64,000 bases of DNA, taken from assembly GCF_000027125.1 (NCBI RefSeq), contig NC_017626.1. The stretch is one strand, 5' to 3'. Made by a program: the position numbers. The stretch's first letter is position 1; the number at the start of each line of letters is the position of its first letter. This DNA is from Escherichia coli 042. Its GTDB lineage: Bacteria > Pseudomonadota > Gammaproteobacteria > Enterobacterales > Enterobacteriaceae. This document shows positions 15,001 to 18,000 of this stretch, piece after piece.

Positions 15001-18000
15001 GAGACGCTACCTGCGCCATCGGCGACAAATAACGTCAATAATGGCTGCTGGTCATTTAGCCAGGCAACCTGCATCTGGCAGGCATCCTGGCAAGGCAAGT
15101 CCGCGCTGATGTGCGACGTTCCAACGGTTGATGCATAGACCAGACGCCAGCTCACACTGACGTCCAGCCTTTTGGCGCTTCCAGCACAACTTCCGTTCCC
15201 GGCGTGGAGCGGGAAACCGAACGCAGTGAACTGGATAACCAGCTAAACAGTTCACGGAATTGTAATCCCTGCAGTGGCAAAGGCTGACGAACGCTGATTT
15301 GTGCCAAAGTCTTCATATCCGCCCCCTGAACACCGATGGAAAAGAAGGCAAACTTCTTATCTTCTTCCCCCTGAAACACTTTGTTGGCGGCAGCCTGCCA
15401 CTCATCGGTTGGAGCGCCATCGGTGATCAGGAAAATCCACGGGCGATAATACGAAATACCATTTGCACGATACTCACGTTTGCGCTCCTCTACCATATCC
15501 AGGGCTTTGGTAATGGCAGCGCCCATTGGTGTATCGCCCTGGGCAAACAGGATGGGTGGGAAAAAATTAGCGGCGCTGGTAAAGGGTTGTTCCACATGCA
15601 CCGGGCCGAACGTCACAATGCCGAGTTCCACTCTTTTTAAGGCCAGCGGGTCGGCAAGCAGCTCATCGCGAAAGGTAACCAATCCGGCATTAAGTTCATT
15701 AATAGGTCTTCCGCTCATCGAGCCAGAAACATCCAGCAACAAAATGCAGGGGCAACGTGGTTCCGGGTTACTGGCAAAATCGCTGGTGGCAAACATGATT
15801 TGTTCGCTCATAAGAAATCCTTTCTTAGAGAATTATTGAGGTCCGGTATCATACCGATTGCAATAATGAAATAAGAGCAAACGAAGAAACTTTCAGAATT
15901 AGGCCCGGCGGCGCAGAAAATTTTGCTATTCGCCTCGCAAGAACGAAGAGCCGTCGATTGACACTAAGGGCGGAGTGACATAATTTCAGGAGTGAGGGTT
16001 AGGGAGAGGTTTCCCCCTCCCCCTGGTGTTCTTAGTAAGCCTGGAAGCTAATCACTAAGAGTATCACCAGTATGATGACGTGCTTCATCATAACCCTTTC
16101 CTTATTAAAAGCCCTCTTCTCCGGGAGAGGGTTTCCCGTTTCAGCGTCCCGCTGAAATCGTCGGCTTACCTCCTTTCGCCCTGAATGCAGTCTATCGCTA
16201 ACGCGTGAACAAAATAGTTTCCTCTGTGATTATTGCGTAACGACTCGCAAAGAATATTTGCTGGCAGGATCGCAGACTGCAAAGCCTGCAGATTGACAAT
16301 CTTATCGTGAAGGCATACTTTCAGGAGTGAGGGTAGAGCGGGGTTTCCCCCGCCCTGGTAGTCTTAGTATGCTGGGTAGCTAATCACTAAGAGCACCACG
16401 ATGATGAGTATCTTCATCATGACCCTTTCCTTATTTAAGGCCCCTTCCTCGGGAGGGGCTTTCCCGTTTCAGCGTCCCGCTGAAATCGTCGGCTTACCTC
16501 CTTTCGCCCTGAATGCAGTCTATCGCTGACTTGCGGATAAAATAGTTTCCAGTGTGATTATTGCGTAACGTCTCGCAAAGAATATTTGCTGGCAGGATCG
16601 CAGACTGCAAAGCCTGCAGATTGACAATCTTATCGTGAAGGCATACTTTCAGGAGTGAGGGTAGAGCGGGGTTTCCCCCGCCCTGGTAGTCTTAGTAAGC
16701 TGGCCAGCTAATGACTAAGAGCACCACGATGATGAGTAGCTTCATCATGACCCTTTCCTTATTTATGGCCCCTTCCTCGGGAGGGGCTTTCCCGTTTCAG
16801 CGTCCCGCTGAAATCATCGGCTTACCTCCTTTCGCCATGCACGTAGTCTATCGCTAACGCGTAGATAAAATAGTTTCATGTGTTATTACTGGATGCGTGC
16901 TCGCAAATGTGCCCGTCATTCAGACGATTCCCGACAGTGTTTCATAATTCCTCCATTTTTCTCCCTTATTGGCTGGCTACACTAGTATCATTCCGCGAAA
17001 CGTTTCAGGAAGAGAAACTCTTAACGATGAAAGGCAGTTATAAATCCCGTTGGGTAATCGTAATCGTGGTGGTTATCGCCGCCATCGCCGCATTCTGGTT
17101 CTGGCAAGGCCGCAATGACTCCCAGAGTGCAGCCCCAGGGGCGACGAAACAAGCGCAGCAATCGCCAGCGGGTGGTCGCCGTGGTATGCGTTCCGGCCCA
17201 TTAGCCCCGGTTCAGGCGGCGACCGCCGTAGAACAGGCAGTTCCGCGTTACCTCACCGGGCTTGGCACCATTACCGCCGCTAATACTGTTACGGTGCGCA
17301 GCCGCGTGGACGGTCAACTGATGGCGTTACATTTCCAGGAAGGCCAGCAGGTCAAAGCAGGCGATTTACTGGCAGAAATTGACCCCAGCCAGTTCAAAGT
17401 TGCATTAGCACAAGCCCAGGGCCAACTGGCAAAAGATAAAGCCACGCTTGCTAACGCCCGCCGTGATCTGGCGCGTTATCAGCAACTGGCAAAAACCAAT
17501 CTCGTATCCCGTCAGGAGCTGGATGCCCAACAGGCGCTGGTCAGTGAAACCGAAGGCACCATTAAGGCTGATGAAGCAAGCGTCGCCAGCGCACAGCTGC
17601 AACTCGACTGGAGCCGCATCACCGCACCAGTCGATGGTCGCGTTGGTCTCAAGCAGGTTGATGTTGGTAACCAAATCTCCAGTGGTGATACCACCGGGAT
17701 TGTAGTGATCACCCAGACGCATCCTATCGATTTGCTCTTTACCCTGCCGGAAAGCGATATCACTACCGTAGTACAGGCGCAAAAAGCCGGAAAACCGCTG
17801 GTTGTTGAAGCCTGGGATCGCACCAACTCGAAGAAATTAAGTGAAGGCACGCTGTTAAGCCTCGATAACCAAATCGATGCCACTACCGGTACGATTAAAG
17901 TGAAAGCACGCTTTAATAATCAGGATGATGCGCTGTTTCCCAATCAGTTTGTTAACGCGCGTATGTTAGTCGACACCGAACAAAACGCCGTAGTGATCCC

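What the first reader, a model, noticed from the sequence alone, without database searches (positions are those of the whole stretch)
15905..16890. Three tandem sib/ibs type I toxin-antitoxin units between yegL and mdtA
The sequence shows three ~328-bp direct repeats. Each encodes, on the minus strand, an Ibs-type hydrophobic toxin (MMKHVIILVILLVISFQAY; MMKILIIVVLLVISYPAY; MMKLLIIVVLLVISWPAY) and, antisense to it, a Sib sRNA with its own terminator. To my recollection K-12 carries two copies (sibA/ibsA, sibB/ibsB) at this locus, so this array appears expanded by one unit. The penultimate residue differs in each copy (Q, Y/P context, W). The array is directly adjacent to the candidate yegIKL signalling module.
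Basis: partly seen in the sequence, partly recalled or inferred. Interest (0 to 1): 0.55.

Follow-up and report, generated by a model that had tools for sequence, protein, structure and literature searches.

The report
Three-unit Sib/Ibs toxin-antitoxin array
The yegL-mdtA gap holds three tandem copies of the well-known Sib/Ibs small-RNA/toxic-peptide module, one more than E. coli K-12 has, but about 40% of complete E. coli genomes sampled have three copies and they are already annotated, so this is ordinary.

Summary
A tandem repeat with a 328-bp period lies at 15979-16888. It contains three full-length Rfam SIB_RNA hits (140-150 bits, threshold 56). Each hit fully overlaps an 18-19-aa hydrophobic Ibs ORF on the minus strand.

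K-12 MG1655 does have only two units here (sibA/ibsA and sibB/ibsB). Window unit 1 is sibA/ibsA (99%). Unit 3 corresponds to sibB/ibsB (97%, Ibs F15W). Unit 2 is an extra B-type unit.

This is not unusual. In two evenly spaced samples of 5,426 complete E. coli genomes:
- about 40% carry three units (including O157:H7, O111 and BEN2908)
- about 40% carry two
- roughly 8-15% carry four (including BL21(DE3))
- a few carry one

RefSeq already lists the window's Ibs peptides under WP_ accessions. Fozo et al. 2010 reported 3-7 ibs genes per Escherichia or Shigella genome.

The two B-type Sib RNAs differ at only six positions. All six lie in stretches predicted to be unpaired, and four lie in the target-recognition domains defined by Han et al. 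2010.

One detail in the finding is wrong: the penultimate residue is Ala in all three copies. The variable residues are 4-5 and the fourth residue from the C-terminus.

Verdict: already known, low interest.

The parts
15958..16907 (.). Whole array: one A-type unit followed by two B-type units. Spacing between units is 335 and 328 bp.
   Evidence: TRF period 328, 2.8 copies, score 1441. Repeat families D1-D5. Three-unit alignment, 89% mean column identity.
15958..15986 (+). sibA promoter-like elements: -35 TTGACA (15958-15963), 17-nt spacer, weak -10 TAATTT (15981-15986), ending 7 nt before the K-12-annotated SibA 5' end.
   Evidence: Read from the sequence. The 5' end was mapped from the K-12 sibA annotation. 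The generic promoter scan did not report it because the -10 is weak.
15994..16137 (+). SibA antitoxin RNA (144 nt), unit 1. Its terminator hairpin is at 16109-16134.
   Evidence: Aligned end to end with K-12 sibA b4436. Rfam 149.5 bits. MFE -58.5 kcal/mol, z = -4.9. The unit is 99% identical to K-12 unit 1.
16032..16091 (-). ibsA toxin ORF (19 aa, MMKHVIILVILLVISFQAY), lying entirely inside SibA.
   Evidence: Identical to the RefSeq IbsA protein WP_010723109.1 annotated in K_EC180 and other strains.
16293..16321 (+). Unit 2 sib promoter-like elements: -35 TTGACA (16293-16298), 17-nt spacer, -10 TACTTT (16316-16321).
   Evidence: Read from the sequence. Register taken from the K-12 sibB 5' end.
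16329..16464 (+). B-type Sib RNA of unit 2 (136 nt). This is the unit that K-12 lacks. Its terminator hairpin is at 16437-16462.
   Evidence: Rfam 140.8 bits. Aligned to K-12 sibB. MFE -59.6 kcal/mol, z = -3.7. 92% identical to the K-12 sibB unit and 99% to K_EC180 unit 2.
16364..16420 (-). ibs ORF of unit 2 (18 aa, MMKILIIVVLLVISYPAY).
   Evidence: Same peptide and position as WP_012767742.1 'type I toxin-antitoxin system Ibs family toxin' in K_EC180, O157:H7 Z852 and BL21(DE3).
16621..16649 (+). Unit 3 sib promoter-like elements (-35 TTGACA 16621-16626; -10 TACTTT 16644-16649).
   Evidence: Identical to unit 2 at a +328 offset. There is only 1 difference in the 88 nt upstream of Sib.
16657..16792 (+). 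B-type Sib RNA of unit 3 (136 nt), the counterpart of K-12 sibB. Its terminator hairpin is at 16767-16788.
   Evidence: Rfam 140.2 bits. The unit is 97% identical to the K-12 sibB unit. MFE -59.0 kcal/mol, z = -3.6.
16692..16748 (-). ibs ORF of unit 3 (18 aa, MMKLLIIVVLLVISWPAY). This is K-12 IbsB with F15W.
   Evidence: Same peptide as WP_100249772.1 in K_EC180 and CE0026a.
16370..16385 (+). Variable patch 1 of the B-type Sib RNAs (apical loop of the second hairpin; ibs codons 12-17). It overlaps TRD1 of SibC. The equivalent stretch in unit 3 is 16698-16713.
   Evidence: 4 of the 6 differences between units 2 and 3 inside Sib fall here. It is the most variable stretch of Sib across 18 B-type units from 8 strains. 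TRD1 is defined in PMC2943612.
16408..16411 (+). Variable patch 2: the loop of the start-codon hairpin (ibs codons 4-5). The equivalent in unit 3 is 16736-16739. A single variable position in the TRD2-like linker lies at 16438 (16766 in unit 3).
16155..16194 (-). Predicted ibsA leader and promoter (inferred, not mapped). A -10-like TAGACT lies at 16194-16189, with a start site near 16182. A 25-nt block, GCGAAAGGAGGTAAGCCGACGATTT (16179-16155), is present in all A/B-type units and absent from ibsC/D/E. The same features recur at +328 and +656 in units 2 and 3.
   Evidence: Alignment of eight ibs-strand units, combined with the published 18-nt 5' overhang of ibsC mRNA beyond the SibC 3' end and the ~160-nt ibsC mRNA length (PMC2943612).
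15152..15811 (-). yegL (vWA-domain protein), left flank.
   Evidence: ORF list. Annotation of the matching region in K_EC180 and K-12.
17027..18274 (+). mdtA, right flank.
   Evidence: ORF ending at 18274. The K-12 and K_EC180 mdtA is 1248 nt.

Best explanation
This is the chromosomal sib/ibs type I toxin-antitoxin locus of E. coli in its three-unit form. Each unit encodes an 18-19-residue hydrophobic inner-membrane toxin (Ibs) on the minus strand. On the plus strand it encodes a ~140-nt antisense RNA (Sib) that spans the whole toxin ORF and its ribosome-binding site. By analogy with the characterised K-12 pairs, Sib is made continuously and pairs with its own ibs mRNA. Pairing starts at exposed loop or linker sequences (TRD1 inside the ORF, TRD2 at the translation-initiation region). 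This blocks translation and triggers RNase III-dependent decay, so the toxin is not made. Unit 1 is sibA/ibsA. Unit 3 is the counterpart of K-12 sibB/ibsB. Unit 2 is an additional B-type paralogue. The number of B-type units varies between strains from zero to three, most simply through unequal crossing-over or gene conversion between the 328-bp repeats. Shown here: sequence anatomy, family membership, synteny, copy-number distribution, and where the paralogues differ. Inferred: expression, toxicity, repression, and the recombination mechanism.
For: There are three full-length SIB_RNA hits well above threshold. Three intact Ibs ORFs with a Shine-Dalgarno sequence lie fully inside the Sib transcripts. 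All three Sib RNAs fold into the same architecture: a closing stem, three hairpins and a terminator, with z = -3.6 to -4.9 and 0 of 200 shuffles folding as well. K-12 has sibA/ibsA and sibB/ibsB at the same yegL-mdtA position, and unit identities are 99% and 97%. Identical peptides are annotated as Ibs family toxins in RefSeq. Copy number at this locus ranges from 1 to 4 in complete genomes: 16/40 and 24/60 sampled genomes have three units. Eight strains show IbsA first, followed by 1-3 B-type cassettes that combine LL/IL/WI at residues 4-5 with F/Y/W at residue 15 in different orders. Units 2 and 3 differ at only 6 positions within Sib, all in predicted unpaired stretches. Four of these lie in TRD1- or TRD2-equivalent windows (3 + 1), a fifth lies just outside the TRD1 window in the same loop, and the sixth lies in the start-codon hairpin loop. 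Duplex energy for the TRD1 hairpin is -55 to -57 kcal/mol for cognate pairs and -36 to -40 for non-cognate pairs. The mechanism comes from the literature: PMC2943612 and PMC4147584. All three peptides keep Lys3 and Leu11, the positions reported as required for Salmonella IbsA activity (bioRxiv 10.1101/2025.05.26.656083).
Against: Nothing here shows that any of the three units is transcribed, toxic or repressed in this strain. The Sib -10 hexamers are weak, and a generic sigma-70 scan reports none of the Sib promoters. Clustering of the unit 2 versus unit 3 differences in TRD windows defined by SibC numbering is only suggestive (4 of 6, hypergeometric P = 0.06). TRD2 differs by a single base between units 2 and 3, so strict one-to-one specificity is not assured. 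The ibs promoter and start site are placed by alignment only.
Confidence: 0.93

Rival explanations
1. The three units are not independent modules. Units 2 and 3 cross-repress each other, and possibly ibsA too, so the extra unit adds redundancy or dosage rather than a new orthogonal pair.
For: Sib from units 2 and 3 are identical at 130 of 136 positions, and the TRD2-equivalent segment differs by one base. Han et al. found that either TRD alone suffices for repression, and that ibsA is repressed by a non-cognate Sib (PMC2943612). BL21(DE3) carries two B-type units encoding identical peptides.
Against: Four mismatches sit in the TRD1-equivalent loop and one in the start-codon hairpin loop. The computed duplex penalty is about 15-19 kcal/mol for non-cognate TRD1 hairpins. 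Published K-12 pairs other than ibsA are cognate-specific.
Confidence: 0.3
2. One or more units are decaying, non-functional repeat copies, retained only because the repeat is neutral.
For: Fozo et al. 2010 raise relaxed selection as one explanation for duplicated type I loci (PMC2887945). Copy number varies freely from 1 to 4 between strains.
Against: All three units keep an intact -35 TTGACA, the ORF, the Shine-Dalgarno sequence, the terminator hairpin, and full-length Rfam matches at 140-150 bits. No frameshift or premature stop is present. Within Sib, the B-type units of 8 strains vary in three short patches (16370-16385, 16408-16411, 16438) plus two singleton columns, and are otherwise invariant.
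Confidence: 0.05
3. The third unit is an assembly artefact: a mis-expanded repeat.
For: Tandem 328-bp repeats can be mis-assembled from short reads.
Against: Units 2 and 3 differ at 25 of 328 positions and encode different peptides. The same three-unit array is 99.6% identical in the complete genome of K_EC180, and three-unit arrays occur in about 40% of sampled complete genomes.
Confidence: 0.01

Closest known systems
E. coli K-12 MG1655 sibA/ibsA-sibB/ibsB locus (b4436/b4667, b4437/b4668)
   Same: Same yegL-mdtA position and orientation. Unit 1 is 99% identical to the K-12 sibA unit, with an identical IbsA peptide. Unit 3 is 97% identical to the K-12 sibB unit.
   Different: The window has one more B-type unit between them (MMKILIIVVLLVISYPAY). 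Its sibB counterpart encodes Trp instead of Phe at residue 15.
Three-unit yegL-mdtA arrays annotated in RefSeq E. coli genomes (e.g. K_EC180 NZ_CP062203.1, O157:H7 Z852, BEN2908)
   Same: K_EC180 is 99.6% identical over 1401 bp, with the same three peptides in the same order (WP_010723109.1, WP_012767742.1, WP_100249772.1).
   Different: Other three-unit strains carry different B-type cassettes or a different order. O157:H7 has WI-F then IL-Y, and BEN2908 has LL-F then WI-Y. Only 46 of 5,422 records are at least 99% identical to the window's version.
K-12 sibC/ibsC and the tandem sibD/ibsD-sibE/ibsE pairs
   Same: Same family, with the same antisense-over-whole-ORF layout. The mechanistic model (TRD1/TRD2, RNase III) was established on these pairs.
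   Different: They sit at different loci (fau-serA and yqiK-hldE). They lack the 25-nt leader block GCGAAAGGAGGTAAGCCGAYGATTT found in all A/B-type units.
Other tandemly duplicated type I TA loci (ldr/rdl LDR repeats; zorO-orzO/zorP-orzP)
   Same: They are chromosomal, hydrophobic-peptide toxin plus antisense-RNA modules, duplicated within one intergenic region, with strain-variable copy number (PMC2887945).
   Different: The sequences are unrelated. In those families the antitoxin does not span the whole toxin ORF (PMC8594479).

Membership tests
Sib antitoxin RNA (Rfam RF00113) | Match to the SIB_RNA covariance model at or above the gathering score (56 bits) | tested here: met
   Three full-length hits of 149.5, 140.8 and 140.2 bits.
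Sib antitoxin RNA (Rfam RF00113) | A ~140-nt transcript with its own promoter and intrinsic terminator, folding into a closing stem plus internal hairpins | tested here: met
   The ends map onto the K-12 sibA/sibB annotation. A -35 TTGACA with a weak -10 lies 7 nt upstream of the 5' end. Terminator hairpins and a shared fold are predicted, z = -3.6 to -4.9. Actual transcription was not tested.
Ibs type I toxin | An 18-19-residue, strongly hydrophobic ORF with a Shine-Dalgarno sequence, on the strand opposite Sib and wholly overlapped by it | tested here: met
   ORFs 16032-16091, 16364-16420 and 16692-16748 lie inside Sib 15994-16137, 16329-16464 and 16657-16792. AAGGAAAGGG lies upstream of each ATG.
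Ibs type I toxin | Recognised as an Ibs family protein by curated annotation | tested here: met
   The same peptides at the same positions are annotated by RefSeq as IbsA or 'type I toxin-antitoxin system Ibs family toxin' (WP_010723109.1, WP_012767742.1, WP_100249772.1). A direct NCBIfam or Pfam scan is not possible because the peptides are shorter than the tools' 20-30 aa minimum.
Ibs type I toxin | Positively charged residue 3 and Leu11, reported as required for Salmonella IbsA activity | tested here: met
   All three peptides have Lys3 and Leu11. The requirement is from bioRxiv 10.1101/2025.05.26.656083.
Ibs/Sib type I toxin-antitoxin system | Overproduced Ibs is toxic, and the cognate Sib represses it by base pairing | not testable with these tools
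   Established for the K-12 pairs (PMC2943612, PMC4147584). No expression or toxicity data exist for this strain.
sibA/sibB locus of E. coli | Located between yegL and mdtA, with Sib transcribed in the mdtA direction | tested here: met
   Flanking ORFs and the annotated K-12 and K_EC180 loci.

The most novel reading that the evidence does not exclude
The B-type units may form a recombining cassette array under diversifying selection at the RNA level. Two short loop patches (the TRD1-like loop over ibs codons 12-17, and the start-codon hairpin loop over codons 4-5) are reshuffled among strains to give new orthogonal Sib-ibs specificities. On this reading, the F/Y/W and LL/IL/WI peptide changes are largely by-products of selection on RNA recognition. 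The evidence does not exclude this. Variation within Sib across 18 units is concentrated in those patches, and the combinations differ between strains. However, no selection test was done, and neutral variation in unpaired, unconstrained positions would look similar.
Probability: 0.2. Interest if true: 0.35.

Novelty: already known. Interest (0 to 1): 0.1.

Why it matters
It matters little beyond correct annotation. The locus is a textbook type I toxin-antitoxin system. Its variable copy number has been published since 2010, and the exact peptides are already in RefSeq. The useful correction is that K-12's two units are not the norm for the species: three or more units are at least as common. 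Anyone studying Sib/Ibs cross-talk or deleting 'all' ibs genes in a non-K-12 strain needs to count the units first.

Tried and rejected
- The generic promoter/terminator scan found none of the Sib promoters or terminators. The -10 hexamers match only 3 of 6 positions, and the T-tract after the terminator is short. Placement therefore rests on the K-12 annotation and folding.
- Fozo et al. 2008 (PMC2597788), the primary description of the family, is not held in the library. I first guessed a wrong PMC id for Fozo 2010.
- The hypergeometric test of clustering in SibC-numbered TRD windows gave P = 0.06. I treat it as suggestive only.
- 'Places per genome' from BLAST is not a unit count, because offset alignments of tandem units are counted separately. 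I did not use it.
- I first thought the His in IbsA (MMKH...) was the residue shown to be essential in Salmonella IbsA. The preprint shows the relevant position is residue 3, which is Lys in all three peptides here. I dropped the idea that B-type toxins lack it.
- NCBIfam and Pfam scans cannot be run on peptides of 18-19 aa.
- Assembly artefact and decayed-copy readings were considered and rejected (see rival explanations).

Full report
**Observation.** The region contains a genuine tandem repeat. Tandem Repeats Finder reports 15979-16888 with period 328, 2.8 copies, 89% matches and score 1441. Gap-free repeat families recur at 328-335 bp spacing. A three-way alignment of the units has 89% mean column identity. 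Rfam's SIB_RNA model (RF00113) matches full length three times on the + strand at 15958-16106, 16293-16435 and 16621-16763. The scores are 149.5, 140.8 and 140.2 bits against a gathering score of 56.

On the minus strand, each hit contains a short ORF preceded by AAGGAAAGGG:
- 16091..16032 MMKHVIILVILLVISFQAY
- 16420..16364 MMKILIIVVLLVISYPAY
- 16748..16692 MMKLLIIVVLLVISWPAY

The variable residues are 4-5 and the fourth and third from the C-terminus.

**Anatomy.** Aligning the annotated K-12 sibA (144 nt) and sibB (136 nt) to the window places the three Sib transcripts at 15994-16137, 16329-16464 and 16657-16792. The Rfam coordinates start earlier because that model includes the promoter and stops before the terminator.

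Each transcript is preceded by a perfect -35 TTGACA, a 17-nt spacer and a weak -10 (TAATTT or TACTTT) ending 7 nt before the 5' end. A generic sigma-70 scan misses these. All three RNAs fold alike: a closing stem, three internal hairpins, a single-stranded linker and a GC-rich terminator hairpin. MFE is -58.5 to -59.6 kcal/mol, z is -3.6 to -4.9, and none of 200 shuffles folds as well. Each ibs ORF and its Shine-Dalgarno sequence lie wholly inside the antisense Sib.

On the toxin strand I aligned eight units (the K-12 A-E units plus the three here). All A/B-type units carry a 25-nt leader block, GCGAAAGGAGGTAAGCCGAYGATTT, that ibsC/D/E lack. Han et al. report that ibsC mRNA is ~160 nt long and overhangs the SibC 3' end by 18 nt (PMC2943612). 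Combining the two places the ibsA start site near 16182 (-), behind a -10-like TAGACT. This placement is inferred, not mapped.

**Comparison with K-12 and the species.** K-12 MG1655 has exactly two units between yegL and mdtA. Window unit 1 is 99% identical to the K-12 sibA unit. Unit 3 is 97% identical to the sibB unit, with Ibs F15W. Unit 2 is 92% identical to the sibB unit and is the additional copy. So 'one more than K-12' is correct.

It is not unusual, though. I ran megablast of the locus against 5,426 complete RefSeq E. coli genomes and listed rows at even steps down the ranking.

| State at yegL-mdtA | 40-row sample | 60-row sample |
|---|---|---|
| Three units (query matched in one piece) | 16 | 24 |
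| Two units, K-12-like (span shorter by ~328 bp) | 16 | 24-25 |
| One unit | 2 | about 1 |
| Four units | see below | see below |

The three-unit genomes include O157:H7, O111, O113, ST38, BEN2908 and LY180.

For four units, six rows show IbsA plus three further Ibs CDS under the match (two, four). I confirmed two of these directly: CE0026a and BL21(DE3). Eight further rows cover the query only partly (three, five). The one I inspected, FDAARGOS_1289, also has four units. The other seven partial-coverage rows were not inspected, which is why I give four units as a range of roughly 8-15%.

PGAP annotates every unit. The window's two B-type peptides are WP_012767742.1 and WP_100249772.1, and strain K_EC180 has the same three peptides in the same order at 99.6% DNA identity. 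Fozo et al. 2010 list 6 Ibs genes in O157:H7 EDL933 and 7 in Sakai. They list 7 in S. boydii, S. sonnei and E. fergusonii, 4 in S. flexneri and 3 in S. dysenteriae. They state that copy number varies between strains and that these loci are prone to tandem duplication (PMC2887945).

**How the array varies.** In eight strains, IbsA is always the single yegL-proximal unit. It is followed by one to three B-type cassettes spaced exactly 328 bp apart. B-type peptides combine LL, IL or WI at residues 4-5 with F, Y or W at residue 15, and the order differs between strains. This is what unequal crossing-over and gene conversion between near-identical repeats would produce. That mechanism is inferred.

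Within the Sib transcript, 18 B-type units vary mainly at 16370-16385, 16408-16411 and 16438 (unit 2 coordinates). There are also two singleton columns, 16344 and 16454. In the predicted fold, these three stretches are the apical part of the second hairpin, the loop of the start-codon hairpin, and the linker before the terminator.

The window's units 2 and 3 differ at 25 of 328 positions overall, but at only six positions inside Sib, and all six are in those patches. The 88 nt upstream, containing the Sib promoter, differ at a single position.

**Mechanism.** For the K-12 pairs, Sib RNAs repress only their cognate ibs mRNA, with ibsA as the exception. They do so through two independent recognition domains: TRD1 within the ORF and TRD2 at the translation-initiation region. 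Both lie in the most variable parts of the family, and swapping them switches specificity (PMC2943612). Pairing blocks ribosome binding, and the duplex is processed by RNase III (PMC4147584).

The window's variable patches coincide with these domains. A simple duplex calculation on the 31-nt TRD1 hairpin gives -55 to -57 kcal/mol for cognate pairs and -36 to -40 for non-cognate pairs. TRD2 differs by only one base between units 2 and 3, and either TRD alone suffices in SibC. Some cross-repression between the two B-type units is therefore a live possibility, which I carry as the main rival on mechanism.

On the protein side, all three peptides keep Lys3 and Leu11. A 2025 preprint reports these positions as required for Salmonella IbsA to arrest growth and inhibit the FoF1 ATP synthase. 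The residues that vary here are not those.

**Verdict.** The feature is real and correctly identified. It is an already-known, already-annotated, common allelic state of a well-characterised locus. The assembly-artefact and decayed-copy readings are not supported. Expression, toxicity and specificity in this strain remain untested. Interest is low.

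Noticed in passing
window 1947-2448: A RelE/ParE-family toxin ORF (1947-2168, 73 aa) overlaps a helix-turn-helix antitoxin ORF (2140-2448, 102 aa). Together they form a type II toxin-antitoxin pair inserted in the yegH-asmA intergenic region, which is ~890 bp here against ~290 bp in K_EC180. Only 51 of 5,426 complete E. coli genomes match at least 80% of this interval, and O157:H7 has a partial version.
   Followed up: partly
window 6008-9326 (around 6421-6429): dgcE (yegE, diguanylate cyclase) is split into two overlapping ORFs, 6008-6541 and 6300-9326. 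Alignment to K_EC180 shows a run of nine G where K_EC180 has GGGGGGTG, which is a +1 frameshift in a homopolymer. It could be a pseudogene, a slippage-prone tract or a sequencing error.
   Followed up: partly
window 17000-41000: Across 24 kb of core genes (from mdtA through mdtBCD and baeS to trhP/yegQ and beyond), the best identity to any of 5,426 complete RefSeq E. coli genomes is 98.0%, and none reaches 99%. The sib/ibs array with its flanks is 99.6% identical to K_EC180. The strain seems to belong to a poorly sampled lineage, or the region is a recombination mosaic.
   Followed up: no
window 13868-14329: yegJ is present between yegI and pphC, as in K-12 and FDAARGOS_1289. K_EC180, the closest match for the sib/ibs array, lacks it and has yegI overlapping pphC directly.
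   Followed up: no
window 16155-16179, 16483-16507, 16811-16835 (minus strand): The 25-nt block specific to A/B-type ibs leaders contains a near-perfect Shine-Dalgarno sequence (AAAGGAGGT) with no ATG, GTG or TTG at a suitable distance downstream. It is followed by a perfect 8-bp hairpin, TTTCAGCG-GGA-CGCTGAAA. Its role is unknown; a standby ribosome site or leader structure are possibilities.
   Followed up: no
window 30112-30197 and 46541-46637: A CyaR/RyeE sRNA (+ strand, 100.7 bits) and a TPP riboswitch (- strand, 71.8 bits) are the only other Rfam hits in the window. No tRNA genes were found.
   Followed up: no
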